From assembly GCA_028693275.1 (NCBI GenBank), contig JAQUVS010000001.1, positions 129,206 to 193,205 of the forward strand: DNA of 64,000 nt. Reading direction: 5' to 3'. The position numbers were made by a program, and so were the translations under genes. Of the stretch, positions 15,851 through 52,103 are shown in pieces (within the stretch, counting starts at the first letter, position 1; each line of letters opens with the position of its first letter). The notes under the pieces were generated by a model. It worked only from the letters and a program-made list of their open reading frames with translations, searched no databases and had not been told where the DNA came from. The stretch is from Bacilli bacterium. GTDB taxonomy: Bacteria; Bacillota_I; Bacilli_A; RF39; UBA660.

Positions 15851-15851
15851 T

Positions 15852-16638: not shown

Positions 16639-16712
16639 TTTAATCGGTACATTTATAGATCCAATGCAACTTTTTTCCGGGAGTTGTGGGGGAATAATAA
16701 AGGAGAAAAAAT

Positions 16713-17147: not shown

Positions 17148-17156
17148 GAGGGTATA

Positions 17157-17582: not shown

Positions 17583-17590
17583 TAATATTA

Positions 17591-17616
17591 AAGAACATAT
17601 ATTTATGTTCTTTTTT
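17591..17616. terminator. bidirectional rho-independent terminator
   Basis: Hairpin AGAACATatatttATGTTCT flanked by an A-run on one side and T6 on the other, between convergent rpsI (+) and the 17639-18619 gene (-). Confidence 0.7.
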
Positions 17617-17638
17617 TGTATATAAAAAAGTATTTTGA

Positions 17639-18619: not shown

Positions 18620-18718
18620 AGTAATCACCACCATATGATAAATTATAACATATTTTTTCATTAAATTTTCATATATTTTACACAATACTTGTGCTATAAT
18701 TTATACTAGGTGAGATGA

Positions 18719-19672
18719 ATGTATAATAGAAGTGGAAAAGAATTTAAAAATTTAGAAGAGCAAATAGAAATTCTAGAGTTCAAGGGATTAATTATATCAA
18801 ATTATGAATTTGCTAAAGAAGTTCTTTTAAGAGAAAATTATTTCTTTTTAAATGGATATAGACATTTATTCATGAAATCAGAAAATAATAAGAGATTTAT
18901 TGATGGTACTACATTTGAAGAATTATATAGTTTATTTTTATTTGATAGACAATTTAGAAATGTAATATTTAAGAATTTATTAATAATTGAAAATAATGTA
19001 AAATCAGTTATATCTTATCAATTATCATTAAAGTATGGGTATAAAGAAAATGATTATCTTAAAGAAAAGAATTTTACTAGAGATCCAGAAAAAAGTAGAC
19101 AAGTAAATGATTTACTTAAGAAAATGAAAAGACAAGTTAGATCTAATGCTAATCAGCATGCAGCTACAATGCATTATGTAAGTAATTATGGTTATATACC
19201 ATTATGGGTATTAGTAAAGGTTTTATCTTTTGGTATTGTAGGAGAATTATTCTCTATTTTAAAAAGAGAAGATCAAGAAATAATAGCTAATATGTATAAT
19301 ATGGATCCAGATGAATTAATTAATAATTTACCTATATTATCTAATTATAGAAATCTTTGTGCACATGAAGATATAGTTTTTGAAAATAAGACACAAAGAG
19401 TTATAGAAGATACTATATATCATCAATTATTAAAGATAAATAAGATGGATGGAGAATATATATATGGTAAGAATGATCTATTTGCTTTAATAATTTTAAT
19501 TAAACAGATGCTTAAAGATGTTGAATTTAAAGATATGGTTATAGAAATAGATAGATTATTGGATAATTTAGCTTATAATTTAAAAACAATACCTTTAAGT
19601 AAGGTATTAGATAGAATGGGATTTCCAGAAAATTGGGAGGATATTCAAAATATTAAAAAGAGGGTGGAATAA
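18719..19672 (+). CDS. Abi_2 (AbiD/AbiF-like) abortive-infection family protein, HEPN-type
   Basis: N-terminal ..EEQIEILEFKGLIISNYEFAKEVLLRENYFFLNGYRHLF.. matches the Abi_2 consensus; RNLCAHED is an HEPN Rx4-6H motif. Confidence 0.75.
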   Translation: MYNRSGKEFKNLEEQIEILEFKGLIISNYEFAKEVLLRENYFFLNGYRHLFMKSENNKRFIDGTTFEELYSLFLFDRQFRNVIFKNLLIIENNVKSVISYQLSLKYGYKENDYLKEKNFTRDPEKSRQVNDLLKKMKRQVRSNANQHAATMHYVSNYGYIPLWVLVKVLSFGIVGELFSILKREDQEIIANMYNMDPDELINNLPILSNYRNLCAHEDIVFENKTQRVIEDTIYHQLLKINKMDGEYIYGKNDLFALIILIKQMLKDVEFKDMVIEIDRLLDNLAYNLKTIPLSKVLDRMGFPENWEDIQNIKKRVE

Positions 19673-35115: not shown

Positions 35116-36453
35116 ATGAAAATTAATGGAAAAGATATAAGAATAAATAGGGAAACAGCAAGAATTTCAGAAATGGATAGAGTATATTGTAGTTTAGTAG
35201 AAGAAATACTGACTGAAGGTGTTGAAACTAAAAATAGAACAGGAATTAATACTATAAGTATTGCCGGCTGGAACTATAAATTTAATGTCGGAAAAGAATT
35301 CCCTGTAGCAGAAACTAAAGATGTTAAAGTTATGAATTGTACATCAGAAATTCAGTGGATTCATCAAGTTCAAAGTAATGAAGTTAAATGGTTACAAGAC
35401 CGTGGAAATAATACTTGGGATTTATGGGTCGTTGACGAAGATGGTATTTATCGTACTTATGAACAAGGAGCTAACTCATTAGATGAGCCTGACAAAATAG
35501 TACAAGTTAGAGATGTTAAAGGGAATTTAATGACCGATAAATATAATAAACCATTAATGGCTAAATCATCTATGATAATTAAAGATGAAAATAATAATGA
35601 AAAATATGCTACTATAAAAACGGCAACTTTCTTTGGTAAGGAATATGCTGGCACAATAGGTGAAGCATATGGTTATATTACAAAACTTTACCAAAGACCA
35701 CAATATGTGGAAAATACTATAAAAAACAATTCAACAGATCGCCGCATGAATATAGTTCTATGGCAAGATGCTCATTTAGAAAAAGCTGTATTGCCATCAT
35801 GTGTTTGGTCTAGTGAATATAAAGTTACACCAGATGGAAAATTACATTCATATATTCATCAAAGGAGTGCAGATGTTCCATTAGGATTACCATTTAATAT
35901 TACACAGTACGCTATTGAATTGTCAAAATATGCTAAAGCATCAGGACTAGAAGTTGGCACAATGAGTTGGAGTATTATGGATGCTCACATTTATGTTAAT
36001 CAACTAGATGGTATTAAAAAACAATTAAAAAGATATAAATACATGTCTGAGTATGTAGATATAATTCAAAATAGTAGTGATGAAGAAGTAGAAATACTTT
36101 ATAATAAACAAGTTGATTTTTTTGATAAATTACATAAGAGAGCAACTGTTTTGCTACTAGAAGATATAAATCAATTACCAATGTCTAAACGTGTAAAAAT
36201 ATTACAAAATATTGATTATGAACTTGCTAAATCTTATGAAGAAGCATTTGAAATGAAAGTTTCATTTGAACATATTTTAACAAGAGAAGAACCGGTTCTT
36301 GAACTTGCAAGTCATAATTCAGTTTTTGAATATTCAACAGATTATGTATCAAAGACTGATCCATATACTAAAGAAAATCCAATAGGTAATAGGGAAATAG
36401 TTTTGAAGAAATATACTCCTACACCATTTATAAGAATGCCGATTGCGCAATAA
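35116..36453 (+). CDS. thymidylate synthase (ThyA) family protein with large insertions (445 aa)
   Basis: TS-family blocks ..KNRTGINT.., LPSCVWSSEY (catalytic Cys), HQRSADVPLGLPFNITQYA, MDAHIYVNQ and a C-terminal ..MPIAQ. Roughly 180 extra residues compared with canonical 264-280 aa ThyA. Confidence 0.7.
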   Translation: MKINGKDIRINRETARISEMDRVYCSLVEEILTEGVETKNRTGINTISIAGWNYKFNVGKEFPVAETKDVKVMNCTSEIQWIHQVQSNEVKWLQDRGNNTWDLWVVDEDGIYRTYEQGANSLDEPDKIVQVRDVKGNLMTDKYNKPLMAKSSMIIKDENNNEKYATIKTATFFGKEYAGTIGEAYGYITKLYQRPQYVENTIKNNSTDRRMNIVLWQDAHLEKAVLPSCVWSSEYKVTPDGKLHSYIHQRSADVPLGLPFNITQYAIELSKYAKASGLEVGTMSWSIMDAHIYVNQLDGIKKQLKRYKYMSEYVDIIQNSSDEEVEILYNKQVDFFDKLHKRATVLLLEDINQLPMSKRVKILQNIDYELAKSYEEAFEMKVSFEHILTREEPVLELASHNSVFEYSTDYVSKTDPYTKENPIGNREIVLKKYTPTPFIRMPIAQ

Positions 36454-39932: not shown

Positions 39933-40775
39933 ATGGGAAAAGAGATAATTAGTGTATGCTATGAAGTTAATAAAGAATGTAATTTAAAATGTGATTATTG
40001 TATTACAAGTGATAATGAAAATAATAAAATAGATTATAAAATGATAATAAAATATATTGTATCTTTAAATCCTAAGAGAATAGTTATATCAGGAGGAGAG
40101 CCTCTATTAGATCCTGATTTAATAAAGAAGTTAGCAGTATTAAGAGAATTATGCCCAGATAGTTATATTTCTCTTAGTACTAATGGAACGGTAAAATATG
40201 ATTATAATTTAATTAATAAATATGTAGATTGTATAGATGTTAGTTTACCTAGTTTATCGTCTGATGTTTATGAGTTGATGAGAGGTAGAAATTTATTATC
40301 TAATGTAAAAGAAAATCTTGAAGATTTAAAAGAATTAGATATTGATTTAAGATTAAGTTTTATGTTAACTAGAGTTAATAAAGATGAAATATTTGACTTC
40401 TTAGCGTATGCAGAAAGTTTAAATGTAAAAGAAGTTAGAATAGGTAGATATTTTCCTTTTAGAGGTGGAAATAAGTATTCTTTTAAATATGAACTAAGTC
40501 AAGATGAAATAGATTTAGTAGTTAGTAAAATAAATAAAGAAGACTATCCTTTTAAAATAGTTTTACCTATTGGTAATTTACAATTGATGAGTGATAGTTA
40601 TCTTACTATTAATCATATGGGACAGGTTTCTACTCCTACATATGATGGTAAAAATATTTTATTAGAAATAAATGAAGATACAAATAATGATGTTGATTTG
40701 AATATAGGAAATCAAAATGATATTTTTGAGAAAGTTCTTCTTAAAAATAATTGTAAAAGAACAAATAATAAATAA
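39933..40775 (+). CDS. radical SAM domain protein (activase-like)
   Basis: CNLKCDYC CxxxCxxC cluster motif near the N-terminus and a GGEPLL SAM-binding motif. Confidence 0.7.
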   Translation: MGKEIISVCYEVNKECNLKCDYCITSDNENNKIDYKMIIKYIVSLNPKRIVISGGEPLLDPDLIKKLAVLRELCPDSYISLSTNGTVKYDYNLINKYVDCIDVSLPSLSSDVYELMRGRNLLSNVKENLEDLKELDIDLRLSFMLTRVNKDEIFDFLAYAESLNVKEVRIGRYFPFRGGNKYSFKYELSQDEIDLVVSKINKEDYPFKIVLPIGNLQLMSDSYLTINHMGQVSTPTYDGKNILLEINEDTNNDVDLNIGNQNDIFEKVLLKNNCKRTNNK

Positions 40776-40784
40776 GGAGAACAA

Positions 40785-41462
40785 ATGAAAAAAGTATTTT
40801 TATATTTATATCCAATAGAAGAGTATCAAAGAGTTTTAACTTTCTCTGATAAATACTATATAGAACATAACTTAGAAAGACCTGAAATAGTTTTAAATGA
40901 ATGTATAAAGAAAAGATATATTGATAATGGATATGAAGTGGTAATTGCTAATTATCCAGATAAAGAAGTGTTTGGTATTAATTTAGAAAATATTAGTAGA
41001 ATTATTAATACTGATGTAACTTTTAAGGAAGCTTCCGGTTATAGGGAAGATGGAAGTGAAAAACCTATAGAAGAAGTAAAATATCCAAGTGAAGAATTTC
41101 TATTAGAACAAGTAGGTAATGTGGATGAAATTGTAGTTGGTGGTTTTCATGTATATGATTGTGTAAAAAGAGTGGCAGAACATTTTTATGAAAAGGGAAT
41201 AGATACTATGGTTGATTTAGAACTTACTGATCTTTTATATACTGTGTATAGACAGTCTTATTTTAATAAAGAAATATATAATCCAGCTAATTACAAACAA
41301 TATATGATAGCTTTAGGTTTAAGATGTGGTGAAAGATTAGAAGAAATTCATGATAATCTTAATAAAAGATTTGGTTCTCCAATCTATAGATTTAATGATT
41401 ATGAACCAACTATTTCAGTGGAAGAAGTATTTAAGGATGAAAAAAGAGGGTTAAGAAGGTAG
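40785..41462 (+). CDS. hypothetical protein, possible isochorismatase-like cysteine hydrolase
   Basis: ..EIVVGGFHVYDCVKRVAEHFYEKGIDTMVDLELTD.. resembles the catalytic-Cys strand of the isochorismatase family; weak. Confidence 0.3.
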   Translation: MKKVFLYLYPIEEYQRVLTFSDKYYIEHNLERPEIVLNECIKKRYIDNGYEVVIANYPDKEVFGINLENISRIINTDVTFKEASGYREDGSEKPIEEVKYPSEEFLLEQVGNVDEIVVGGFHVYDCVKRVAEHFYEKGIDTMVDLELTDLLYTVYRQSYFNKEIYNPANYKQYMIALGLRCGERLEEIHDNLNKRFGSPIYRFNDYEPTISVEEVFKDEKRGLRR

Positions 41463-41556
41463 AAAGTATTTATTAAATCCTGTTTTCCCGACCATTTGAA
41501 ATTTAGGCCTTATTTTTCTTGAATTTTAAATTAAATGGGTAAAAAAGAATTGTATT

Positions 41557-41583
41557 ATACCGTTTGCGGTATGATATTTTTTC
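41557..41583 (+). terminator. rho-independent terminator
   Basis: ATACCGtttgCGGTAT hairpin followed by a T-run. Confidence 0.55.
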
Positions 41584-41665
41584 TAATAGATATTTCTGAA
41601 TCTGTTAATTATTAAAATGATTTTTTTATATGTATAAATGAAAATAACTGCTATAATTATAATAG

Positions 41666-43795
41666 GTGATTAGTGTGAACGATTTAAATGAATACTTTGA
41701 TGATATGTTTAAAGAAGTTGATCCAAATATACTTTTAGATGAACAGCAAAGAGAAGCTATTACTATTGATTCTGATAATCTTTTAGTTGTGGCGGGAGCA
41801 GGTAGTGGAAAGTCTACTACTATGGTAGCTAAAGTAAAATATTTAATTGATAAGTGTGGATATAAAGAATCGGAAATTGTAGTTGTCTCTTTTACAAAAA
41901 AGGTAAAAGAAGAATTATCAGAAATCATACATGATAAATTTGGACTAAAAAATGTAGCTGTAACAACTTTTCATAGCTTAGGTTTAGAAATAATTAATAA
42001 GAGCGGTGAAGATGTCGCTGATGTAGTTGATGAAAAAGGTCAATACAAAATATTTTCCAATTATATTAAAAATGTTTTATTTAAGGATAAAGAAAAATTT
42101 AGTTTATTGAATGATGCTTTTTCTAAATATTTAAATTTTGGTGATCAATGGATGTCTTTTGATGATTTTGATACATATCATACTAAAAGTTTTGTTGATA
42201 AATTTAATAAATCAGAAGAAAGTATTAAAGTGTATATTGAAAATCAGATTCTAAGAAGAAGACAATATAAAAAGACAATTAATGGAGAATATACAGCATC
42301 CAAAGAAGAAGTAGATATAGCAAATCTTCTTTATATAAATGGAATAGATTATAATTATGAGCTGAAGTTAAATAATGGATATAAAAAGGGAAGGGGATAT
42401 CATCCTGATTTTTATATTCATCAATTAGAAAAAGAAAATTATATAGAACATTTTGGGGTTGACCAAGATGGAAGTAATTCTATGTATAGTGAAAGCGAAT
42501 TAAAAAATTATTTGTCTATTTTAAAAATTAAGGATAAGTATATTAATAGTTATGAAAACAGAAATAAATTTATTGTTACCTATTCTAGGTATGATAATGG
42601 AAAAACATATTTAACAGATTTAATTGATCAACTTAAGCATAATGGTTATGTTCCACACAAAAGATCAGATGAAGAAATATTTGCTAAATTAATGGATACA
42701 GGTACAGATTATTATTTTTCAGTTTTCGTTGATAAAATTTTGGTACCTGTAATATCAATGTATAAGCAAAGTGGATATTCATATAGAGATTATGATTCAT
42801 TAATAGAGTCAAATGATGGTAATTTGAAAAATCAATTAATAGTTTTAAAAATGTTTCACGAATATTATGAGAAAGAACTTAGTAATAAACATTTAATAGA
42901 TTTTGAAGACATGATTTTAAAGGCATATACTTTAATGCCGATTATTAAAGAAAAGGATTTGGGTGTAGATTATAAGTACTTGATAATAGATGAATATCAA
43001 GATATTTCGAATCAAAGATTAAACTTAGTTAAGAGGCTAGTTGATTTATTTGATGCTAAAGTAATGGCTGTTGGTGATGATTGGCAAACAATATTTGGAT
43101 ATGCAGGTTCTAGAATAGATTTATTTAAAAATTTTTCAAAAGAACTTCCGAATTCAGATCAAGTAGCTATAGAACATACTTATAGAAATAGCCAAGAATT
43201 AATAGATATAGCTGGAGAGTTTGTACTTAAGAATCCTTATCAAATTAAGAAACATTTGATATCTGATAAACATACTATCAATCCTGTTGAAATTATTTTT
43301 TATGATGATGAAGAAAAAGAAAAGGTAAATGGTAATAGAGCTAAATATGTAGACGCAATTCTTGGTAATTTAAGTAAAATAAATCCAAATTGTTCTGTAT
43401 TACTATTAGGTAGGTATCAAAAAGATATATACAAAATAGATGATAAAAAGTACTTTAATATAATGGGTTCAAAAATAAAATCTGTTAATTATGAAAATAT
43501 TGATTTGGAATTTTTAACTATTCATAAGGCAAAGGGATTGGGAAGAGACTATGCGATTTTATTAGATCTTAATGATGATAAATATGGTTTTCCAAGTAAG
43601 ATAGATGATTTACCTATAATAAAGTTAATAAGACCTAAAATAGAAGAAAGTATAGATTTTCCTGAAGAGAGAAGGCTTTTCTATGTTGCTTTAACTAGAA
43701 CAAAGAATAAAATTTATATCTTAGTTCCTAAATGTAAAGAATCAGAGTTTTCTATAGAAATAAAAAAATTCCATAATGTGCGTATATTAAAATAG
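41666..43795 (+). CDS. UvrD/PcrA/Rep-family SF1 DNA helicase
   Basis: Helicase motif I AGAGSGKST, DEYQD (II), GDDWQTIFGYAG (III), TIHKAKGL, and C-terminal LFYVALTR. The start may be GTG 41675. Confidence 0.85.
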   Translation: MISVNDLNEYFDDMFKEVDPNILLDEQQREAITIDSDNLLVVAGAGSGKSTTMVAKVKYLIDKCGYKESEIVVVSFTKKVKEELSEIIHDKFGLKNVAVTTFHSLGLEIINKSGEDVADVVDEKGQYKIFSNYIKNVLFKDKEKFSLLNDAFSKYLNFGDQWMSFDDFDTYHTKSFVDKFNKSEESIKVYIENQILRRRQYKKTINGEYTASKEEVDIANLLYINGIDYNYELKLNNGYKKGRGYHPDFYIHQLEKENYIEHFGVDQDGSNSMYSESELKNYLSILKIKDKYINSYENRNKFIVTYSRYDNGKTYLTDLIDQLKHNGYVPHKRSDEEIFAKLMDTGTDYYFSVFVDKILVPVISMYKQSGYSYRDYDSLIESNDGNLKNQLIVLKMFHEYYEKELSNKHLIDFEDMILKAYTLMPIIKEKDLGVDYKYLIIDEYQDISNQRLNLVKRLVDLFDAKVMAVGDDWQTIFGYAGSRIDLFKNFSKELPNSDQVAIEHTYRNSQELIDIAGEFVLKNPYQIKKHLISDKHTINPVEIIFYDDEEKEKVNGNRAKYVDAILGNLSKINPNCSVLLLGRYQKDIYKIDDKKYFNIMGSKIKSVNYENIDLEFLTIHKAKGLGRDYAILLDLNDDKYGFPSKIDDLPIIKLIRPKIEESIDFPEERRLFYVALTRTKNKIYILVPKCKESEFSIEIKKFHNVRILK

Positions 43796-43826
43796 TGGTA
43801 TAATTAATATAATTTGGAGGTTATTT

Positions 43827-44216
43827 ATGAAAAATGTTGAAGTTGTAGCAGCAGTAATACAGGACGGTAATAAAATTTTAGCTACTAGAAGAGGCTATGG
43901 TGATTTTATCGGTATGTGGGAATTTCCTGGTGGAAAAATTGAAGAAAATGAGACTCGCGAAGTAGCCTTAATAAGGGAAATTAAGGAAGAATTAGATGCG
44001 GATATTGAAGTAGGAAAATTTTTAACAACCGTAGAATATGATTATCCAAAATTTCATTTAATGATGCATTGTTATTTATGTCATTTAAAGGAAAGTAAGA
44101 TAACTCTCGTAGAACACAGTGATGCTAAGTGGCTAGAAAGTGATGAGTTATCATCGATTGATTGGTTGCCAGCGGATATAGAAGTAGTAGATAAAATCAA
44201 AAAATTAGTAAGGTAG
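43827..44216 (+). CDS. NUDIX hydrolase (MutT-like)
   Basis: Nudix box GGKIEENETREVALIREIKEELDA. Confidence 0.85.
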   Translation: MKNVEVVAAVIQDGNKILATRRGYGDFIGMWEFPGGKIEENETREVALIREIKEELDADIEVGKFLTTVEYDYPKFHLMMHCYLCHLKESKITLVEHSDAKWLESDELSSIDWLPADIEVVDKIKKLVR

Positions 44217-44223
44217 GTATATT

Positions 44224-47007
44224 ATGGAAATGAATACAGCAGTAACAAAATCGCTATTTGATAAAGAAGTTGATTCTTTAGTTTATAATCCTAATATAGT
44301 TATAAATGAAAATAGTAAAAATATTAAAGAAAAAATTCAAGAGCTATTACAATCATCAAGTAGAGTTGATATTGCTGTTAGTTATGTTGTATGGTCAGGG
44401 CTCTCTTTAATATATGATGATTTAAAGAAGTTTGATTCTAATAGTAGGTTATTATTAACTACAGAAGGTATGGTTACGGATCCTAGATCACTACAAAAAT
44501 TAAGTGAGTTAAATATGCAGGTAAAAGTTTACGTACCTTTTAATGGTGCAAAAGGATTCCATTTAAAGACATATCTATTTGAAAATGAATCCAAAAGAAC
44601 TTTATTAATTGGAAGTTCTAATATATCATCTAGGGCATTCGGTTTAGTTCATGAAATGGCTGTAGAAATTGATGCTGACAGTAAAGGTTATATAGTAGAA
44701 AAATACAATGAAGTATTTGAACAATTATGGGAAGATGAGTATTCTGAATTCTTGTCAGAACAATATATTGAAGGATATAAAATTCTTTATAAAGAATATA
44801 AAAAAATGAAAAAAGATATTGAAAACATAGTTGAAGATAGCGGTTTAATTAAACCTAATTATATGCAGGAAAAAGCATTGAAGTCACTGGAAGATTGTAG
44901 AGAGACAACTGATAGAGGATTAGTTATTGCAGCTACTGGAACAGGTAAAACGTATTTATCAGCATTTGATGTAAAAAATAGTAAATATAGAAAGGTTCTC
45001 TTCTTGGTTCACAATAGGCTCATTCTCACATCAGCAATTAAAACATTTAAAAAAGTATTTAATGATAAAAGTATGCTAGAATTAACATCTAATAATGTTG
45101 AAGAAGTTTATACTTCAGATTTTATATTTACTACTGACAAAACAGCATATAATTGTTTATTTAATAAAATTCCAAAAGATTATTTTGAATATATAATATA
45201 TGATGAAGCTCATAAAATTGGTTTAGAAACAAAATATAGTGAGTTGCTAGAATATTTTACTCCTAAGTTTACTTTAGGAATAACTGCAACTCCAGAAAGA
45301 ACAGATAATCCAGATTATTTATTTAAAACATTTAAGTACAGTATTCCTTATGAAATTAGATTACTTGAAGCAATGAAATATGAACTGGTTTGTCCGTTTA
45401 CTTATTATGGATTAACGCTTAAAGAAAATTTATTAAAAGCAAACGAAGAATATGATTATGCTGAATTAGCAAAATATTTGAAAAAAGTAATTGCTGAAAA
45501 AGGTCATTACGGAGAAAAATTAAAGTGTCTAATTTTTTGCTCATCAATTAATGAAGCAAAATCAACATCTGAAGAACTTAGTAAAATAGGATTTAAATCA
45601 GTTGCTTCGGTAAGCTCAGAATCAGGAAATGATAGAGATTCAACTGAGCAGTATATTAATGATTTAAAATCTGATATTGATGGTACTTTAGAAATTATTT
45701 GTACAGTAAATAAATTTAATGAAGGAATTGATATTCCTGATATAAATACAATTATTATGCTTAGAAATACAGTATCATCAATAATTTACTTGCAGCAATT
45801 AGGGCGCGGTCTAAGAAAAACAAATGATCAGCATAAGTATGTGACAATATTTGATATAATTGGCAATTCAAAAAATAATTATTCAATTGCTCAAGTATTA
45901 ACAGGTAATACTACAGTTGATAAAAGAAATCTATATAGATATGCAAACGAAGAGTTTCAAACTGTTTCTCCTTTTATAAATGTACAGATAGAAAAAGAAG
46001 CAATGGAAAATATAATTAAATCAATTTCCAATAATTTTACTGTTAAAACAAAAATTAAAGAAAAGTTTAGAGATGAATTATTTAGATTTAAAGAAATACC
46101 TACTTTACTTGAACTTTATATAAATCCTAATTTTAAAGAGTTAGATTTGTTACAATTGTTATTTAGAAATTTCTATGACCCATTTGAAGAATATTATTAT
46201 ACAAAATATTTTATAGAAAAGTCTAACAAGTTTATTAATGATTTTTTTACTCTTATTTCTCAATTTGTATTTAGGGGATATGATAATAAAACATTAAAAG
46301 ATTATGTGAAAATTTTGAAGGGTGAAAAAGTAAAAAATGAAATTTTAGAAAAAGTACTACTTTCAACTGAAATTACAAATGGAATATCAACTTTTATCTT
46401 TAGTGATTATTATAAAGCGACAAAAAATAATCCAAAAGTTTTTGTTATCAGTGATAATTATTTAACTCTTAATGATGAAATATATAAAGAATTAGAAAAA
46501 AATAATGCAATGAAGTTATTTGAAGAACATATCGAACTTTTCGAATATTTAAGTAATCAAATTGAATATCAGATGAAACCATTTGATTTAGTTGACAAAG
46601 GTGAATTTTTATTTAATTCTGGAAGTAAAGATTGCTATATGAATGTTGTTGGTGAAAGAATTGATAAAGATAGAAAAACAGTGTACTGTACTATTAACAT
46701 AACAAGAAAAGATTCATTCTATGATAATTACATTATTGATGATCATAAATTTGTTTATTATACGCAAGGTTCATCGACTGAAGTAAAAGCAAAAGAGAAA
46801 ATTGATATGTTTATAAAAGATAATTACAAATTTAATGTGTGTGCAAAATTTCCACATTTGGGTTATACGAATACCGTATATTTTAATTTAGGCGAAGTGG
46901 ATATATCAAAAATATCTGATGTTATCGAAACTGAAAAAGGCAAGTTTAATCATGAAATTGAATTTGAATTAAAAGATAAATTTCCAATCGAATTATTACA
47001 ATATTGA
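44224..47007 (+). CDS. PLD-family nuclease domain, SF2 (DEAH-like) helicase and DUF3427 C-terminal domain fusion
   Basis: N-terminal HKD motif GFHLKTYLF..LLIGSSNIS. SF2 motifs GLVIAATGTGKT and IYDEAHK, plus helicase C-terminal QQLGRGLR. The ~300-aa C-terminal domain is DUF3427-like. Confidence 0.75.
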   Translation: MEMNTAVTKSLFDKEVDSLVYNPNIVINENSKNIKEKIQELLQSSSRVDIAVSYVVWSGLSLIYDDLKKFDSNSRLLLTTEGMVTDPRSLQKLSELNMQVKVYVPFNGAKGFHLKTYLFENESKRTLLIGSSNISSRAFGLVHEMAVEIDADSKGYIVEKYNEVFEQLWEDEYSEFLSEQYIEGYKILYKEYKKMKKDIENIVEDSGLIKPNYMQEKALKSLEDCRETTDRGLVIAATGTGKTYLSAFDVKNSKYRKVLFLVHNRLILTSAIKTFKKVFNDKSMLELTSNNVEEVYTSDFIFTTDKTAYNCLFNKIPKDYFEYIIYDEAHKIGLETKYSELLEYFTPKFTLGITATPERTDNPDYLFKTFKYSIPYEIRLLEAMKYELVCPFTYYGLTLKENLLKANEEYDYAELAKYLKKVIAEKGHYGEKLKCLIFCSSINEAKSTSEELSKIGFKSVASVSSESGNDRDSTEQYINDLKSDIDGTLEIICTVNKFNEGIDIPDINTIIMLRNTVSSIIYLQQLGRGLRKTNDQHKYVTIFDIIGNSKNNYSIAQVLTGNTTVDKRNLYRYANEEFQTVSPFINVQIEKEAMENIIKSISNNFTVKTKIKEKFRDELFRFKEIPTLLELYINPNFKELDLLQLLFRNFYDPFEEYYYTKYFIEKSNKFINDFFTLISQFVFRGYDNKTLKDYVKILKGEKVKNEILEKVLLSTEITNGISTFIFSDYYKATKNNPKVFVISDNYLTLNDEIYKELEKNNAMKLFEEHIELFEYLSNQIEYQMKPFDLVDKGEFLFNSGSKDCYMNVVGERIDKDRKTVYCTINITRKDSFYDNYIIDDHKFVYYTQGSSTEVKAKEKIDMFIKDNYKFNVCAKFPHLGYTNTVYFNLGEVDISKISDVIETEKGKFNHEIEFELKDKFPIELLQY

Positions 47008-47032
47008 ATTTAAACATATTATAAATCTATTA

Positions 47033-47058
47033 ATCACTAGAAATAGTGATTTTTATTT
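47033..47058 (+). terminator. terminator fused to the downstream promoter
   Basis: ATCACTAgaaaTAGTGAT hairpin plus T-run, followed by TATAAT at 47066-47071 and RBS AGAGGTG at 47078-47084. Confidence 0.6.
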
Positions 47059-47090
47059 TATAATGATATAATTGATATAGAGGTGTTTAT

Positions 47091-47561
47091 ATGTCTAAGA
47101 TAAGTAATATTTTAAATATGATTCAGTTACTAAGTAGTGGAAGAAAATATAGTATTAAAGAGTTATCGGATAAGTTAGAAGTAACTCCTAGACAAATTAG
47201 AACTTATAAAGAAGAATTAGAACTTGCAGGTATATATATTGATTCAATTAAAGGACCATATGGAGGATATATTTTAAATCAAAATATAAATGTTCCTAAA
47301 AGGTTTATTACTCCTAGAGATATTAAAGGGTTAGATCAATATAATTATAAAGAAATTAATAGGGCTATAAAAGAAAAAAAGAAATGTTATATTGAGTATT
47401 ATGCTAGGGATAAATCTATTTCAAATAGGATAATAGAACCTTATGATTTAATTTTATTTGGAGATCTGTGGGGTGTTGCTGCTTATTGTGAATTGAAACA
47501 AGAAATAAGAAATTTTTATTTAAATAGAATTAAAAGTATTAAAATTTTAGATAATAAATAA
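47091..47561 (+). CDS. short HTH-WYL domain transcriptional regulator (BrxR/CapW-like, lacking WCX)
   Basis: N-terminal wHTH (LNMIQLLSSGRKYSIKELSDKLEVTPRQIRTYKEEL) followed by a WYL-type motif ..RIIEPYDLILFGDLWGVAAYCELKQEIRNFYLNRIKSI. Confidence 0.65.
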   Translation: MSKISNILNMIQLLSSGRKYSIKELSDKLEVTPRQIRTYKEELELAGIYIDSIKGPYGGYILNQNINVPKRFITPRDIKGLDQYNYKEINRAIKEKKKCYIEYYARDKSISNRIIEPYDLILFGDLWGVAAYCELKQEIRNFYLNRIKSIKILDNK

Positions 47562-47615
47562 AGTGACATCAATAGTTCCTATATAGAAGATATAATTATT
47601 TATAGGAGTGGTGTT

Positions 47616-48227
47616 ATGAATAAAGTTTTTTATGTTACAGGTAATTATGGAAAATATGTTTCTGTAAGGGATTCTTTTGATGGGGAAGATATTGAAATAG
47701 ATTTTTTAAATCTTGATTTTAATGAACCTGATGTTAATGATATAGAATATGTATCTAAATCTAAAGTAATGGAAGCTTATGAAAAATTAGGTGAGCCTTG
47801 CTTTGTTATTGATAGTGGTTTTTATATTAATAGTTATCCCAATAATCCAGGTTATCCTGGAGCTTTTGTTAAAAGAAGTGGTATAAGTTCAGATGTTAAT
47901 AATTTACTTTCTGTTATGAGGAATATTAACGATAGAAGTTGTTATTTTTTAGATTGTTTAACTTTTTATGATGGAGAAAATTTATATACTTTTTTTGGTA
48001 AGTGTAGTGGTAATCTTTCTTATGATGTTAGAGGTAGTTATTTAGAAAAAGCTTGGTCAAATTTATGGAGAGTATTTATTCCTAATAACTGTGATAAGTC
48101 TTTATCTGAAATGAATGATTTAGAAAGAAAAAATAGAGACGATGGTAGAACTTCTGCTATTGGTAATTTTATAGAGTGGTATAAAAATGATTATCATAAT
48201 ATAAATGTTCTTAAAAAGACTTTATAA
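47616..48227 (+). CDS. Ham1/RdgB-family non-canonical purine NTP pyrophosphatase-like protein
   Basis: VTGNYGK (like ATGNxGK), CFVIDSGFYINSYPNNPGYPGAF (like DDSGLxVxALxGxPGxYSAR) and C-terminal DDGRTSAIG (like SHRGxA). Confidence 0.6.
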   Translation: MNKVFYVTGNYGKYVSVRDSFDGEDIEIDFLNLDFNEPDVNDIEYVSKSKVMEAYEKLGEPCFVIDSGFYINSYPNNPGYPGAFVKRSGISSDVNNLLSVMRNINDRSCYFLDCLTFYDGENLYTFFGKCSGNLSYDVRGSYLEKAWSNLWRVFIPNNCDKSLSEMNDLERKNRDDGRTSAIGNFIEWYKNDYHNINVLKKTL

Positions 48228-48273
48228 AAATCATATATAGTGGTATAATACACATTAATTTAGGGGGATATAT

Positions 48274-48852
48274 ATGAAAATATTATTAGGAAGTAATAAT
48301 GAAAGTAAGAAAAAATCATTAGAAAGAGCTTTATACGAACTTGAAATAAAAGATTATGAAATAATTAATTTTGATGTAGACAGTGAAACTAATAGTAAGC
48401 CTATTGGATTTGAAATTCTTAGGGGAGCAGAAAATAGAAATAAGAATTTAAAGGCTATAGCAATATTCAAAGAAATTGAATATGATTACTTATGTTCTAT
48501 CGAAGGGGGATTTGAAGTAGATCAAAATGGATTACCAAGTGTTGTTACTTATTGTATTATTGAAGATAAGGACGGTAATATGTTTACAGGTAAATCTTTT
48601 AATATAAGGATTACTAAAGCAATGTTTGAATTTACTAAAAAGGGTGGTTCTTTAAATAGTGTTATTAAAGATATTGTTAAGGATCATACTAAAACTAAAG
48701 GTGGAATAATCGGTTATCTATCTGATGGCTTATATAATAGGGATGATATGGATAGTGGTTCAGTTGTTTCTGCTTTTATACCAATTGTTTATAAAGAACA
48801 AAGAAGTTTATTAGATGAAAAAGTAAAGTCTTTATTAAATAAGAAAAACTAA
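48274..48852 (+). CDS. YjjX-family inosine/xanthosine triphosphatase-like protein
   Basis: LLGSNNESK, GAENRNKN and GGIIGYLSDGLYNRDDMDSGSVVSAF align to YjjX blocks (TTNPAK, GARNR, GAIGxFTxGxLTR). Confidence 0.55.
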   Translation: MKILLGSNNESKKKSLERALYELEIKDYEIINFDVDSETNSKPIGFEILRGAENRNKNLKAIAIFKEIEYDYLCSIEGGFEVDQNGLPSVVTYCIIEDKDGNMFTGKSFNIRITKAMFEFTKKGGSLNSVIKDIVKDHTKTKGGIIGYLSDGLYNRDDMDSGSVVSAFIPIVYKEQRSLLDEKVKSLLNKKN

Positions 48853-48866
48853 TATGAGGTGATTTT

Positions 48867-49583
48867 ATGATTTGGAATCCTTGGAGAGGTTGTCATAAAT
48901 ATAGTGATGGTTGTAAGTATTGCTATATTCATAAAGGAGATAAAAAAAGAGGAATAGATACTTCTTTAATTGTTTTGACTAAGGATTTTGATAAGCCAAT
49001 TGCTAAACTAAAAGATGGTACTTATAAAATCAAAAGTGGTTTAGTTTATACTTGTTTTTCATCTGATTTTTTAATAGAAGAAATGGATCAATATAGATTA
49101 GAATGCTATGATATGATGAGGCAAAGAAGCGATCTTAATTTTTTATTTTTAACTAAAAGAATAGAAAGATTTATGGAAGTTTTACCAAGTGATTGGGATA
49201 ATGGTTATGATAATGTAATTGTATGCTGTACTATTGAAAATCAAAAAACAGCTAACTATCGTTTAAATATTTTTAAAGATTTACCAATTAAGCATAAATG
49301 TATTACTATTCAACCAATGCTTGAAAAAATTAATATTATTGACTACTTAAATGATATAGAATTAGTTGTAGTTGGTGGTGAATCGGATATAAATGCAAGA
49401 TTTTTAGATTATGATTGGGTTTTAGATATTAGAGAACAATGTATAAAGACTAATACTAATTTTGAGTTTAGACAATGTGGAACTCATTTTATTAAGGATG
49501 ATAAATTATTTAATATACCAACTAAAAATTTATGTAAACAAGCGATACTAGCTAATATTAATTACTACAGGGAGAAAAAATAA
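48867..49583 (+). CDS. DUF5131 (phage Gp37/Gp68 family) three-Cys-motif protein
   Basis: N-terminus MIWNPWRGCHKYSDGCKYCY matches the family start tWNPxtGCxxxSxGCxxCY (Cx6Cx2C). Confidence 0.65.
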   Translation: MIWNPWRGCHKYSDGCKYCYIHKGDKKRGIDTSLIVLTKDFDKPIAKLKDGTYKIKSGLVYTCFSSDFLIEEMDQYRLECYDMMRQRSDLNFLFLTKRIERFMEVLPSDWDNGYDNVIVCCTIENQKTANYRLNIFKDLPIKHKCITIQPMLEKINIIDYLNDIELVVVGGESDINARFLDYDWVLDIREQCIKTNTNFEFRQCGTHFIKDDKLFNIPTKNLCKQAILANINYYREKK

Positions 49584-51121
49584 TGAAAGAATATTTAGAA
49601 TTATGTAAAGATAAATTATTATATGAGATATGTGAATTACTGGGAATTGAAAAATTGACAGAAGATAATGATAATGATTATATTTGGTCTATCGTAACTT
49701 CTACTTTATTACATAATGAAAAATTATGTGGAGAAGAAAAAATAGAACAGTATTTAGATTCTTTACCTATAGCTAAATCTATTGAAAGTCATATATTAAG
49801 ATATGCCTTAGATACTAGTTGTGTTTTAGATACTGATAGGTTTAAAAATTATTTTTTAGATAACGATAATAAATTTAGTGATTATAATTCTTTTGATAAA
49901 TATACTTTTTTAACAGAACAATATATATTGGAAGATAAAGATAATTATTTGTCTGATTTGGATATTAGTTATGGAAGTAATTCGGCTATTATTACTGATG
50001 AACTTTTAGATTATAAGAAATTGATAAAAAGAGTTAGAAATAGTTTAGCTCATTCTAATTATGAGATTGTTAATGATGATCAAATTAGACTTTATCATTA
50101 TGATGATAATAATGTTTTAGATTTTAATGTTTTATTATGTAAACCTTTAGTTATAACTATTATTGATGAGATAAATGAAAAATCTTATAATTTATATAGT
50201 AATCTACTTGATGAATTAGGAAATTATAATACTAATAATAAAGAATCTAGAGAAATAAATGATAAAGATATTCAAAGTTATTTAGATGAATATAAGTTTT
50301 TAACAGAAAAAGATAAGTTGAAAATAATTAGACATACTTATAATTGGATAAAAGAAAATCAAATTACTAATAAGTATCTAGTATATGATAGATTAGATAA
50401 AGCAGCTTTTGTAAAGATTAAAAATACTTATAATAGTGCTTTAGTATTAGATTCATTAATAGTTACTAATTATAATAGTGATCCGTTATACTCTGATTAT
50501 TTGTATCACCGATATGGAGTTTATGAATATTCTTCTTTTGATATTAGGACATTTGCTATTTATAAGGAAGAAAAATTAAGATTACTATTGATATCTTTAC
50601 TTAATGTTATTTTCTTATATGGCTCTAATACTAGTAGTAAAGTATTTGATTTATCGTTGGTAGAAACTGATTCTAAGTTTGTTTTGAAAAAAGAGAAAGC
50701 ATTTATTAAAGAAAAAGAAGAAAAACAAAGAGAAATAGATAATATTAAAACATCTATAAATACAAAAAAAGAGATATTAAAAGATAAATATATTGATAAT
50801 GAATATTTTAATAAAATCTTACCAGAAGTTATTTCTTCTTTAGAAATAAAAATAATTGAAAAGGAATCTAGTTTTCCTAATTTTAAAGAAATAAATGTAC
50901 TTGCTCATATTAGAAATAGTTTAGCTCATGGGAATACTATATATAATCATAATAAGCAAGAACTTATATTTAAAGATTATGATCCTTTTACTCATAAACT
51001 TACTTATCTTGGTAAAATAAGTATAGAAAATTTATTTATTTTACTTAAAGATAATGGTATCATTAGTGGTAGAAAAGCAGTTAAGAAACTAGCAGGAGGT
51101 TTTTTATGCATAAATATGTAG
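49583..51121 (+). CDS. tandem-HEPN domain protein (two RNSLAH Rx4H motifs), predicted RNase
   Basis: RNSLAHSNYEIV around residue 150 and IRNSLAHGNTIYNH around residue 440; the same RNxxAH motif type as the Abi_2 protein at 18719. Confidence 0.6.
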   Translation: MKEYLELCKDKLLYEICELLGIEKLTEDNDNDYIWSIVTSTLLHNEKLCGEEKIEQYLDSLPIAKSIESHILRYALDTSCVLDTDRFKNYFLDNDNKFSDYNSFDKYTFLTEQYILEDKDNYLSDLDISYGSNSAIITDELLDYKKLIKRVRNSLAHSNYEIVNDDQIRLYHYDDNNVLDFNVLLCKPLVITIIDEINEKSYNLYSNLLDELGNYNTNNKESREINDKDIQSYLDEYKFLTEKDKLKIIRHTYNWIKENQITNKYLVYDRLDKAAFVKIKNTYNSALVLDSLIVTNYNSDPLYSDYLYHRYGVYEYSSFDIRTFAIYKEEKLRLLLISLLNVIFLYGSNTSSKVFDLSLVETDSKFVLKKEKAFIKEKEEKQREIDNIKTSINTKKEILKDKYIDNEYFNKILPEVISSLEIKIIEKESSFPNFKEINVLAHIRNSLAHGNTIYNHNKQELIFKDYDPFTHKLTYLGKISIENLFILLKDNGIISGRKAVKKLAGGFLCINM

Positions 51122-51561
51122 TTTTAGAATTAATTCCTACTCATACTGATCCTAAACTTGGAGAAGTAATTCAATTATCAGCTTTAAAAATAGATAATTT
51201 AAAATTAGTAGATAGATTTGATTATAGATTAAATGAAGAAAAAATACTTATAAATGAGTTAATAAAATTAATTAGTTATGATAAGGATTCTTTTACATAT
51301 CTTGATAGTACTAATGATATTTTAGAAGAATTTCAAAACTTTGTTGATGATTATAAAATTGTATATATTGATAATACTTATACATATAATTATATAAGTT
51401 ATTTAAAAGGAGATAAGGTTTCTATTAATTCTCTTTTAAATATTAGTAAAAAAGATGATGTAGTTGAAGAAATTATGAAAAGATATAATATAGAACCTAG
51501 TAATTACATAGTGGATATATTATATGAAGGGCTTATTTATAAAAGTAATGAGGTGGCTTAA
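51106..51561 (+). CDS. small protein with weak DnaQ-like 3'-5' exonuclease resemblance (possibly inactive)
   Basis: VVLELIPTHTDPKLGEVIQLSALKID resembles Exo motif I (vvfDxETTG..eIIeigavk) but with the first Asp replaced by Leu. Overlaps both neighbours. Confidence 0.3.
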   Translation: MHKYVVLELIPTHTDPKLGEVIQLSALKIDNLKLVDRFDYRLNEEKILINELIKLISYDKDSFTYLDSTNDILEEFQNFVDDYKIVYIDNTYTYNYISYLKGDKVSINSLLNISKKDDVVEEIMKRYNIEPSNYIVDILYEGLIYKSNEVA

Positions 51562-52103
51562 TGAAATTATTATTTATATCTGATATTCATGGAATAGTTG
51601 ATAATTTAAATTATATTGAAAATCTTTTAACAGAAGAAAAATTTGATAAATTAATTGTTCTAGGTGATTTATATTATATGGGATTTAATTCTATTGATAA
51701 TCATTCTTTTAATAATACTTTAGTTAAAGATTTTTTATATAAAAATAGAAATAAATTAATTTGTATGAGGGGTAATTGTGATTCAGATGTTGATATAGTT
51801 ACTTCTGACTTTCCAATTGCAAGTGGATTATCTTTAATAAATGTAGATGGAATAGATATTTATATAACACATGGTCATGAGTATAATATTGAAAGCAAGA
51901 GACATAAGTTTAATAATTGTTTCTTGGTATATGGTCATAAGCATTTTCCTTTTATAGAAAAAGTAGAAGACGTTACATATATTAATACTGGTTCTATATC
52001 ATTACCTAGAAATAATAGTAATCCTACGTATTTAGTTTATGAGGATAGAAAGTTTACTATCTATGATATATATGGTAATAAAGTAGATGAAATATATTGT
52101 TAG
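51561..52103 (+). CDS. metallophosphoesterase (YfcE/MJ0936-type calcineurin-like phosphodiesterase)
   Basis: Motifs SDIHG, GDL, GNCD, THGH, GHKH. Confidence 0.8.
   Translation: MKLLFISDIHGIVDNLNYIENLLTEEKFDKLIVLGDLYYMGFNSIDNHSFNNTLVKDFLYKNRNKLICMRGNCDSDVDIVTSDFPIASGLSLINVDGIDIYITHGHEYNIESKRHKFNNCFLVYGHKHFPFIEKVEDVTYINTGSISLPRNNSNPTYLVYEDRKFTIYDIYGNKVDEIYC

What the first reader, a model, noticed from the sequence alone, without database searches (positions are those of the whole stretch)
41666..47007. UvrD-like helicase, NUDIX hydrolase and PLD-nuclease/SF2-helicase/DUF3427 fusion immediately upstream of the WYL regulator
Seen in sequence: three co-oriented genes. The first is a full SF1 UvrD/PcrA-type helicase whose 1B/2B region carries a segment resembling a small nuclease-like module (..GYHPDFYIHQLEKENYIEHFG..). 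The second is a MutT-type Nudix enzyme. The third is a 927-aa protein with an HKD phospholipase-D nuclease motif, DEAH-like SF2 helicase motifs and a DUF3427 C-terminus. Established knowledge: PLD-nuclease plus helicase architectures underlie several anti-phage systems, and UvrD-like helicases are components of Gabija-type systems. Inference: this trio is a candidate restriction-like or anti-phage module, possibly co-regulated with the downstream WYL operon. A terminator-promoter junction sits at 47033-47084.
Basis: partly seen in the sequence, partly recalled or inferred. Interest (0 to 1): 0.55.

Follow-up and report, generated by a model that had tools for sequence, protein, structure and literature searches.

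The report
SauUSI-type restriction enzyme with Nudix partner
Two of the three genes form a known kind of bacterial defence cassette, a SauUSI-type enzyme that cuts foreign DNA carrying modified cytosine plus its usual small Nudix partner, while the neighbouring helicase is an unrelated gene, so the finding is mostly ordinary except for an unusually re-tooled base-reading pocket.

Summary
The three ORFs are real, but they are not one system. Genes 2 and 3 (43827-47007) are a SauUSI-family Type IV restriction cassette. The 927-aa protein aligns end to end with the SauUSI crystal structure (E 6e-131). It keeps the HxK(x)4E PLD motif, Walker A, DEAH and motif VI. Pfam's DUF3427 model misses its C-terminus, but that region models confidently as an SRA fold.

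The Nudix gene is the partner already reported next to SauUSI in 2011. Here a Nudix homologue lies next to, or is fused with, 68 of 85 homologous loci. Its closest characterised relative (47% identity) hydrolyses 5-methyl- and 5-hydroxymethyl-dCTP.

The UvrD-like helicase (probable start 41675) carries a conserved PD-(D/E)xK-like insert. It accompanies SauUSI homologues in only 1 of 85 loci, its own homologues sit in unrelated contexts, and no GajA is nearby. It is not Gabija and not part of the cassette. Each unit, and the WYL gene, has its own TGnTATAAT promoter, so co-regulation with the WYL operon is unsupported.

One new point: this rare subfamily replaces SauUSI's base-reading residues (Y831, D858, W868) with invariant E, N, Y, which hints at altered specificity.

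The parts
41552..41587 (+). Intrinsic-terminator-like hairpin plus T-run that closes the upstream transcription unit, before the helicase gene
   Evidence: 11-pair stem with 3 G-C pairs, followed by TTTTTTCTAAT. It is the only terminator-like site found in 41400-47700.
41649..41657 (+). Extended -10 promoter element TGCTATAAT upstream of the helicase gene
   Evidence: TGnTATAAT occurs 30 times in the window against 14 expected, mostly 20-35 nt upstream of + strand start codons.
41675..43795 (+). SF1 UvrD/helicase IV-like helicase of 706 aa (the mechanical ORF starts at 41666). It is an independent neighbour, not part of the restriction cassette.
   Evidence: UvrD-helicase and UvrD_C domains; all SF1 motifs invariant in 16 relatives. 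The best NCBIfam hit is helicase IV at 270 bits, below the 543 cut-off. Contexts of homologues vary.
42188..42730 (+). PD-(D/E)xK-like nuclease module inserted in the helicase 1B region
   Evidence: invariant E40, E41, P73-D74-F75, E87-H88, D92, K115 (numbering of the 181-aa segment). AF2 pLDDT 88. Foldseek hits are weak but all PD-(D/E)xK: R2 restriction-like endonuclease, Bax1, cap-snatching endonucleases, MunI, Hjc. PADLOC PDC-S68 2.8e-12.
43796..43804 (+). Extended -10 element TGGTATAAT directly after the helicase stop codon; probable own promoter of the Nudix/SauUSI-like pair
   Evidence: It lies 22 nt upstream of ATG 43827, with a GGAGG Shine-Dalgarno in between.
43827..44216 (+). Nudix hydrolase of 129 aa, the conserved partner of SauUSI-family enzymes; predicted 5-substituted (d)CTP pyrophosphohydrolase
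   Evidence: (PDC-S07 8e-52). It is 47% identical to B. fragilis Q5LBB1/3GWY, which hydrolyses 5-Me-dCTP and 5-hm-dCTP (PMC5158307).
44224..44778 (+). PLD-family nuclease domain of the SauUSI-like enzyme (aa ~1-185), single HxK(x)4E ... GSxN motif
   Evidence: motif definition taken from PMC7913695.
44836..46032 (+). SF2 DEAH ATPase/translocase domain (aa ~205-603)
   Evidence: Walker A AATGTGKT, DEAH and QQLGRGLR are invariant.
46033..46581 (+). Alpha-helical coupler region (aa ~604-786), by alignment to SauUSI residues 618-805
   Evidence: The whole tail aligns with hhalign probability 99.2%, but the middle part alone is weak (21%).
46582..47004 (+). C-terminal SRA-like target-recognition domain (aa ~787-927), a divergent DUF3427 with a re-tooled pocket (V809, E811, Y821, C822, N835, Y845)
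47032..47060 (+). AT-rich hairpin (8-bp stem, GAAA loop) plus T-run; probable terminator of the pair
   Evidence: MFE -13.5 kcal/mol, z -3.67, none of 200 shuffles as stable. The consensus scan missed it because the stem has only 2 G-C pairs.
47064..47072 (+). Extended -10 element TGATATAAT of the WYL gene (a separate unit, listed as the boundary)
   Evidence: 18 nt upstream of ATG 47091.

Best explanation
Region 43796-47060 is a two-gene Type IV (modification-dependent) restriction cassette of the SauUSI family. Shown by homology: the 927-aa protein has the SauUSI domain order (PLD nuclease, SF2 DEAH motor, helical coupler, SRA-like reader), with every catalytic motif intact. Inferred from published SauUSI work: it dimerises through the PLD domains, and the SRA-like domain flips out and reads a modified pyrimidine in incoming DNA. 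That switches on ATP-driven translocation, and the shared PLD site then cuts and shreds the DNA. The 129-aa Nudix is the family's habitual partner. Inferred from its closest characterised relative: it hydrolyses 5-substituted (d)CTP, such as 5-methyl- and 5-hydroxymethyl-dCTP, to the monophosphate. The most likely role (inference, untested) is to keep the very base the enzyme attacks out of the host's own DNA when modified nucleotides are salvaged or released by restriction. It may also starve phages that build DNA from hm-dCTP. The upstream UvrD/helicase IV-like gene, with its embedded PD-(D/E)xK-like module, is a separate helicase-nuclease of unknown role that merely neighbours the cassette in this lineage.
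For: PADLOC mREase_IV 5.9e-88. PDB 7clg (SauUSI) 2.1e-87; the subfamily profile aligns 4-927 against 9-950 at 5.6e-131. H113, K115, G130, S131, N133, Walker A, DEAH and motif VI are invariant. The TRD model has pLDDT 91.8, and its best PDB matches are SRA domains: SUVH6 9e-5, KRYPTONITE, SauUSI 1.5e-3, SUVH5, UHRF1, AbaSI. Nudix linkage: it is directly upstream in Haploplasma axanthum, Acholeplasma sp., Psychrilyobacter and a 71%-identical relative, all in otherwise unrelated neighbourhoods. It is fused in P0027, P0043 and P0055. It is adjacent in 63 of 80 metagenome loci of canonical homologues, in upstream, downstream, opposite-strand or fused arrangements; only 6 Nudix-free loci have at least 1 kb on both sides. 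The linkage was already noted by Xu et al. 2011 (PMC3141236). A profile of 40 linked Nudix proteins scores 5x1x (158 bits), 3gwy (155) and NudG 2rrk (108) above E. coli MutT 1mut (92). 3GWY is 47-55% identical to family members and hydrolyses 5-Me-dCTP and 5-hm-dCTP at kcat/Km ~5e6 (PMC5158307). Helicase independence. Separate promoters.
Against: No biochemistry exists for this protein. Pfam DUF3427 does not hit it. The residues proposed to read 5mC in SauUSI are replaced, so the modification recognised is uncertain. Deleting the Nudix gene in S. aureus did not abolish restriction and the mutant was viable (PMC3312211), so the Nudix is not needed for cleavage and its protective role is unproven. 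The characterised B. fragilis enzyme is itself not next to a SauUSI homologue. One subfamily locus (L098) lacks the typical Nudix. Close relatives (85-92% identity) apparently keep the helicase next to the pair (P0005 and P0242 are both reported from a contig of 8576 nt), so a lineage-specific functional link cannot be fully excluded.
Confidence: 0.85

Rival explanations
1. All three genes form one three-component anti-phage system. The helicase-nuclease, the Nudix and the PLD-helicase act together, Gabija-like, possibly under WYL control.
For: The genes are co-oriented and tightly spaced. There is no strong terminator between the helicase and the Nudix gene. The helicase hits GajB HMMs (4.8e-42). 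Its insert matches defence candidates PDC-S68/S69. Synteny is probably kept in 85-92% identical relatives.
Against: The helicase is present in 1 of 85 SauUSI-homologue loci, and there it is separated by other genes. It is absent from six independent contexts of the same subfamily. Helicase homologues at 50-71% identity sit in unrelated neighbourhoods. No GajA/OLD nuclease is nearby. Similarity to solved GajB covers only residues 24-85. An extended -10 element lies between helicase and Nudix. A hairpin and a separate promoter lie before the WYL gene.
Confidence: 0.05
2. The cassette is a SauUSI-type enzyme whose reader domain recognises a different modified base than 5mC/5hmC. Candidates are 5-hydroxymethyluracil or an amino- or glyco-hypermodified pyrimidine, or only polar 5-substituents.
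For: At positions aligned to SauUSI Y831, D858 and W868, 37 canonical homologues have Y (34), D (36) and W/A. All 67 subfamily members have E (65), N (67) and Y (66), and I842 becomes C/S. The Pfam model fails. The subfamily is rare: 12 representatives among 1.84 billion.
Against: The pocket assignment rests on a model of SauUSI built on SUVH6, not on a DNA complex (PMC7913695), and on alignment at ~15% identity. An Asn can still pair with the cytosine N3/N4 edge. The window's Nudix is 61-65% identical to Nudix genes linked to canonical enzymes, closer than to those of its own subfamily. That argues for the same nucleotide chemistry.
Confidence: 0.3
3. The Nudix is an ordinary housekeeping MutT (8-oxo-dGTPase), and its position beside the restriction gene has no functional meaning.
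For: Generic MutT-family similarity: TIGR00586 scores 84.9 bits. The S. aureus deletion has no restriction phenotype.
Against: TIGR00586 is below its 97.9 cut-off. The linkage holds in 68 of 85 loci, across at least two phyla (Mycoplasmatota, Fusobacteriota) plus diverse metagenomes, and in four different arrangements including fusions. The family profile prefers the 5-Me-dCTPase and NudG over MutT.
Confidence: 0.03
4. The PLD-helicase is a DNA-repair enzyme (Hef/RadD/XPB-like) rather than a restriction enzyme.
For: Weak NCBIfam hits to RadD and Hef, and PDB hits to XPB/Rad25. One source names P0011 'Hef nuclease'.
Against: Those hits cover only the generic SF2 core and are far below cut-offs. 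The full-length, end-to-end match is to SauUSI. The gene occurs as a mobile cassette in varying contexts, including defence islands.
Confidence: 0.03

Closest known systems
SauUSI (Staphylococcus aureus SAUSA300_2431; PDB 7CLG) with its linked Nudix gene SAUSA300_2432
   Same: Same four-domain order (PLD nuclease, SF2 DEAH ATPase, helical coupler, SRA-like TRD), aligned end to end. Same HxK(x)4E nuclease motif. Same kind of adjacent ~130-aa Nudix gene.
   Different: Only ~30-35% identity. The TRD is not recognised by Pfam DUF3427. The proposed 5mC-pocket residues Y831, D858, W868, F841 and I842 are replaced by E, N, Y, Y and C. Some members of this subfamily have the Nudix fused to the N-terminus.
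Bacteroides fragilis Q5LBB1 (PDB 3GWY) 5-substituted (d)CTP pyrophosphohydrolase, and E. coli NudG (Orf135)
   Same: 47% identity to the window Nudix over the whole length. Top-scoring solved relatives of the SauUSI-linked Nudix family. Intact Nudix box glutamates.
   Different: The B. fragilis gene is stand-alone, not next to a restriction gene. The substrate of the window protein is untested. NudG's NCBIfam model scores below its cut-off (89.8 vs 156).
DUF3427-containing modification-dependent restriction proteins (Lutz et al. 2019, PMC6765204) and SRA-type readers (SUVH5/6, UHRF1, AbaSI, TagI)
   Same: Same SRA/PUA-like fold of the reader domain. Found in defence contexts.
   Different: Different nuclease partner (PLD plus motor here, against PD-(D/E)xK or HNH). 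The base-contacting residues diverge.
Helicase IV (HelD), UvrD/Rep/PcrA, and Gabija GajB, for the first gene
   Same: SF1 UvrD-type core with all motifs.
   Different: It lacks the HelD N-terminal domain. It carries a ~180-aa PD-(D/E)xK-like insert between motifs Ia and II, related to the C-terminus of PADLOC candidates PDC-S68/S69. No GajA partner. Below every NCBIfam cut-off.
NgoAVII/CglI restriction systems (PLD nuclease plus SF2 ATPase)
   Same: A PLD nuclease combined with an SF2 motor (comparison from PMC7913695).
   Different: Those are two-subunit R2H2 enzymes with a B3-type reader and a cognate methyltransferase. Here there is a single chain with an SRA-like reader and no methyltransferase.

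Membership tests
SauUSI-family Type IV restriction enzyme | N-terminal PLD nuclease with a single H-x-K-x4-E ... G-S-x-N motif | tested here: met
   PLDc_2 9e-13 at aa 38-169. H113, K115, G130, S131 and N133 are invariant in 21 relatives. Aligned to SauUSI 119-HxK(x)4E-126.
SauUSI-family Type IV restriction enzyme | SF2 DExH ATPase with Walker A, DEAH and motif VI | tested here: met
   ResIII 1.3e-30 and Helicase_C 2e-10. A236-T243, D327-H330 and Q524-R531 are invariant.
SauUSI-family Type IV restriction enzyme | C-terminal SRA-fold target-recognition domain joined by a helical coupler | tested here: met
   hhalign: tail 99.2%, TRD alone 89% with E 2e-6. AF2 pLDDT 91.8. Foldseek finds SRA domains including SauUSI itself.
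SauUSI-family Type IV restriction enzyme | Match to Pfam DUF3427 (PF11907) | tested here: not met
   No hit at E<=0.01 on the full protein, nor at E<=10 on the isolated tail. None of the ~75 close relatives carries PF11907, while relatives at 35-38% identity do.
SauUSI-family Type IV restriction enzyme | 5mC-pocket residues proposed for SauUSI (Y831, D858, W868, F841, I842) | tested here: not met
   They are replaced by E811, N835, Y845, Y821 and C822. D to N holds in 67 of 67 subfamily members, against D in 36 of 37 canonical ones.
SauUSI-family Type IV restriction enzyme | ATP-dependent cleavage only of DNA that carries the modification | not testable with these tools
   Needs purified protein and modified substrates.
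SauUSI-family Type IV restriction enzyme | No cognate methyltransferase in the unit; linked MutT/Nudix gene | tested here: met
   No methyltransferase domain was found among the ORFs between 35 and 56 kb that were scanned; several of them have no family hit. A Nudix gene lies 7 nt upstream, and linkage is seen in 68 of 85 loci.
Gabija (GajA + GajB) | Adjacent GajA (OLD-family ATPase-TOPRIM nuclease) | tested here: not met
   No GajA/OLD/TOPRIM hit in any neighbouring ORF.
Gabija (GajA + GajB) | Full-length similarity of the helicase to GajB | tested here: not met
   PADLOC GajB HMM hits are fragmentary, in 2-3 stretches. Solved GajB structures match only aa 24-85 (E 1e-9), while Rep, PcrA and UvrD match better.
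DNA helicase IV (HelD) equivalog | NCBIfam NF008276 score above its curated cut-off | tested here: not met
   269.8 bits against a cut-off of 543. The N-terminal ~200 residues of the model are unmatched.
MutT 8-oxo-dGTP diphosphatase / NudG pyrimidine dNTP diphosphatase | NCBIfam equivalog score above its cut-off | tested here: not met
   TIGR00586 scores 84.9 (cut-off 97.9) and NF007834 scores 89.8 (cut-off 156). Family-level ranking favours 3GWY and NudG over MutT.
PADLOC candidate PDC-S07 (Nudix) | Full-length HMM match | tested here: met
   8e-52, aa 1-126 against profile positions 3-130 of 135. The candidate itself has no tested function.

The most novel reading that the evidence does not exclude
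The Nudix is a working part of Type IV restriction rather than a bystander. It would destroy the triphosphate of the same modified pyrimidine that the SRA-like domain reads. This protects the host chromosome from self-restriction when modified nucleotides are salvaged, which matters most for salvage-dependent Mollicutes-like hosts or just after methylated DNA has been shredded. It may also starve phages that replicate with hm-dCTP. In this rare subfamily the invariant E/N/Y pocket would mean a changed target base, such as a polar or hypermodified 5-substituted pyrimidine.
Probability: 0.3. Interest if true: 0.65.

Novelty: new variant of a known kind. Interest (0 to 1): 0.36.

Why it matters
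SauUSI is the main barrier to DNA uptake in S. aureus. The purpose of its conserved Nudix neighbour has been open since 2011. Three observations make a 'modified-dCTP sanitiser' role directly testable. The pair travels as a cassette in at least two phyla plus diverse metagenomes. The two genes are sometimes fused. The closest characterised Nudix is a 5-methyl/5-hydroxymethyl-dCTPase. The re-tooled reader pocket marks a small subfamily that may extend the range of modified bases recognised by motor-driven Type IV enzymes, which is of interest for phage biology and for enzymes that detect DNA modifications. For this window, the practical outcome is that the 'three-gene system' should be split into a known two-gene cassette and an unrelated helicase-nuclease.

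Tried and rejected
(1) An exact look-up of the 927-aa protein found no record, although P0001 is 100% identical.

(2) The single genome-contig scan was run with the single protein and returned only one locus.

(3) The metagenome scan with alignment A1 returned only canonical homologues at 30-37% identity. They were used as a comparison set instead of subfamily contexts.

(4) I tested whether the biochemically characterised B. fragilis Nudix sits next to a SauUSI homologue. It does not.

(5) Pfam on the isolated helicase insert and on the isolated tail gave only noise.

(6) A canonical-TRD HMM searched against the subfamily tails gave no hit. Only profile-profile comparison and fold comparison link them.

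(9) A literature search for PDB entry 5X1X found nothing, so its organism and substrate remain unknown to me.

(10) The 128-aa ORF downstream of the SauUSI homologue in L028 was suspected to be a Nudix, but it is not.

(11) Gabija, HelD, MutT and Hef/RadD assignments were considered and rejected; see the membership tests.

(12) The antisense ORF 41626-41928 was disregarded. It has no support and overlaps the helicase start.
Full report
**Setting.** The window has ~25% G+C and strong positive GC skew, with a ribosomal-protein gene block at its start. The 927-aa protein is 100% identical to a protein of a 'Bacilli bacterium' MAG on a 202-kb contig. Its nearest relatives come from Tenericutes/Mycoplasmatota MAGs, Haploplasma axanthum, Acholeplasma and Psychrilyobacter.

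**Observation.** The three co-oriented ORFs exist as described.

ORF1 is an SF1 UvrD-type helicase.
- Pfam gives UvrD-helicase at 8.9e-43 plus UvrD_C.
- All helicase motifs are invariant among 16 relatives.
- The public annotation (706 aa) and the AGGTGA ribosome-binding site favour GTG 41675 over 41666 as the start.
- The quoted peptide lies in a ~180-aa insert between motifs Ia and II.

ORF2 is a 129-aa Nudix protein with an intact Nudix box.

ORF3 has PLDc_2, ResIII and Helicase_C domains. H113-x-K115-x4-E120, G130-S-x-N133, Walker A, DEAH and motif VI are invariant in relatives. Pfam does not detect DUF3427, even at E<=10 on the isolated tail.

**What gene 3 is.**
- It hits PADLOC's Type IV methyl-directed restriction model at 5.9e-88 and the SauUSI crystal structure 7CLG at 2.1e-87.
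- A profile of 21 subfamily members aligns with SauUSI from residue 9 to 950 (E 5.6e-131). [quoted passage not shown] (PMC7913695).
- The last 142 residues alone align with the canonical DUF3427 region at hhalign probability 89% (E 2.3e-6).
- An AlphaFold model of residues 778-927 has pLDDT 91.8. Its best PDB matches are SRA domains: SUVH6, KRYPTONITE, SauUSI itself, SUVH5, UHRF1 and AbaSI.

**What gene 2 is, and why it is there.**
- A homologue of this Nudix (33-65% identity) lies next to the SauUSI homologue in 68 of 85 loci examined.
- The arrangements are 29 downstream on the same strand, 24 upstream on the same strand, 8 downstream on the opposite strand, and 7 fused or overlapping.
- A more sensitive HMM adds one further locus. 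Of the 16 loci left without a Nudix, 10 are cut by a contig end and only 6 have at least 1 kb on both sides.
- Within the window's own subfamily, the Nudix gene is directly upstream in H. axanthum, Acholeplasma sp., Psychrilyobacter and a 71%-identical relative. The four neighbourhoods are otherwise unrelated: a defence island, the str operon, and metabolic genes.
- In P0027, P0043 and P0055 the Nudix is fused to the N-terminus.
- The linkage is not new. Xu et al. 2011 reported a conserved MutT/Nudix gene beside SauUSI in at least 60 genomes and left its function open (PMC3141236). Monk et al. 2012 found that deleting it does not abolish restriction (PMC3312211).
- Added here: a profile of 40 linked Nudix proteins scores highest against 5X1X (158 bits), 3GWY (155) and E. 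coli NudG (108), above E. coli MutT (92).
- 3GWY is 47% identical to the window protein and 50-55% identical to other family members.
- 3GWY (B. fragilis Q5LBB1) hydrolyses 5-Me-CTP, 5-Me-dCTP and 5-hydroxymethyl-dCTP at kcat/Km ~5e6 M-1 s-1 (PMC5158307). These are the triphosphates of the bases SauUSI attacks.
- The B. fragilis gene itself is stand-alone, so the activity is not confined to restriction-linked copies.

**Mechanism.**
- Shown by homology: an intact PLD site, a DEAH motor and an SRA-like reader.
- Inferred from SauUSI studies: dimerisation through the PLD domains, reading of a flipped base, ATP-driven translocation, and shredding of modified DNA.
- Inferred for the Nudix: hydrolysis of 5-substituted (d)CTP. 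This would prevent incorporation of the targeted base into host DNA, and might deplete phage hm-dCTP.
- The viable, restriction-proficient S. aureus Nudix mutant is compatible with a conditional protective role, but it does not demonstrate one.

**The helicase.**
- Its insert keeps invariant E, E, P-D-F, Q, I-E-H-x-G, D and K residues and models at pLDDT 88.
- Foldseek gives only weak matches (E ~0.01). Nearly all of the listed matches are PD-(D/E)xK nucleases: the R2 restriction-like endonuclease, Bax1, cap-snatching endonucleases, MunI and Hjc.
- The insert also matches the C-terminus of PADLOC candidates PDC-S68 and PDC-S69.
- The gene is therefore a plausible helicase-nuclease, but it is not a partner of the cassette. 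It occurs in 1 of 85 SauUSI loci, and there it is separated by other genes.
- Its homologues at 50-71% identity sit beside MscL/IreB/RuvX, ArgRS, or a Schlafen-like helicase, with no SauUSI homologue.
- No GajA is present. Solved GajB matches only residues 24-85. The helicase IV model scores 270 against a cut-off of 543.

**Transcription units.**
- A terminator-like hairpin at 41552-41587 precedes the helicase gene.
- TGnTATAAT extended -10 elements lie 18-27 nt upstream of the helicase (41649), Nudix (43796), WYL (47064) and DUF84 (48241) start codons.
- The motif occurs 30 times in the window against 14 expected, mostly in this position.
- A hairpin plus T-run follows the SauUSI-like gene (z -3.7).
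- Co-regulation with the WYL operon has no support, and no WYL gene follows the pair elsewhere.

**What is unusual.**
- The window protein belongs to a small subfamily: ~75 clusters at 90% identity, and only 12 representatives at 50% identity among 1.84 billion proteins for the TRD.
- In this subfamily the positions aligned to SauUSI's proposed pocket differ systematically. Y831 becomes E (65 of 67), D858 becomes N (67 of 67), W868 becomes Y (66 of 67) and I842 becomes C/S. Among 37 canonical homologues the same positions hold Y (34), D (36), W/A and V/I.
- This could mean a changed target base.
- Against that, the window's Nudix is closest to Nudix genes linked to canonical enzymes (61-65%), not to those of its own subfamily (46-50%). 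Partners seem to be exchangeable, so the nucleotide chemistry is probably shared.

**Verdict.** This is a known kind of system (SauUSI plus Nudix) in a divergent, rare variant. The helicase is a separate gene.

Noticed in passing
window 39933-41462: A 280-aa radical SAM protein matches both PADLOC pVip (prokaryotic viperin) models end to end (4e-19), and NCBIfam viperin_w_prok at 60 bits, below its cut-off of 180. It is followed by a 225-aa ORF with no family hit. This may be a viperin-like defence pair just upstream of the helicase.
   Followed up: partly
window 35116-36453: A 445-aa thymidylate-synthase homologue (Pfam 2.7e-54 over aa 23-316; TIGR03284 above its cut-off). It is ~130 aa longer than usual ThyA, with an unassigned C-terminal extension. 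Whether it methylates or hydroxymethylates a pyrimidine nucleotide was not examined.
   Followed up: no
window 47091-52103: The WYL-led operon encodes a second set of nucleotide 'house-cleaning' and nuclease-type proteins: Ham1/RdgB ITPase, DUF84 ITP/XTPase, DUF5131 (PADLOC PDC-M30B/M41B), a 512-aa protein with no family, a DEDD exonuclease and a YfcE phosphodiesterase. A DUF5131 gene also lies 2 kb upstream of the SauUSI-like gene in L098.
   Followed up: partly
whole window (e.g. 12740, 18692, 32052, 36593, 39145, 41649, 43796, 47064, 48241): TGnTATAAT is twice as frequent as expected (30 against 14; none of 100 shuffles reaches 30). On the + strand it mostly lies 20-35 nt upstream of start codons. 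This organism appears to use extended -10 promoters with very short leaders.
   Followed up: partly
L001/L002 (Haploplasma axanthum), 1-18775: There the Nudix/SauUSI-like pair sits in a dense defence island: a DNA2-like helicase with DUF2726, DUF6119, a Metallophos-nSTAND NTPase, two ADP-ribosylglycohydrolases, a resolvase, a DpnII-type R-M system with two methyltransferases, and AIPR.
   Followed up: no
P0276, P0284, P0289, P0294 (helicase homologues): Longer relatives of the helicase (860-890 aa) carry an N-terminal extension and C-terminal Cys4 zinc-ribbon repeats that the window protein lacks.
   Followed up: no
window 43827-44216 compared with L084, L054, L050, L053: The window's Nudix is 61-65% identical to Nudix genes linked to canonical DUF3427-type SauUSI homologues, but only 46-50% identical to those linked to its own TRD subfamily. 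This suggests that partners have been swapped between cassettes.
   Followed up: partly
P0368 (159 aa): A 159-aa protein matches the variant TRD over its whole length (33% identity, E 6e-13). It could be a stand-alone reader domain or a fragment.
   Followed up: no
L091/L092, 3947-9091: One helicase homologue (60% identity) lies directly after a UDG, a MazG-like NTP pyrophosphatase and a Schlafen-group-3-like helicase. That is another nucleotide-sanitation or defence-flavoured neighbourhood.
   Followed up: no
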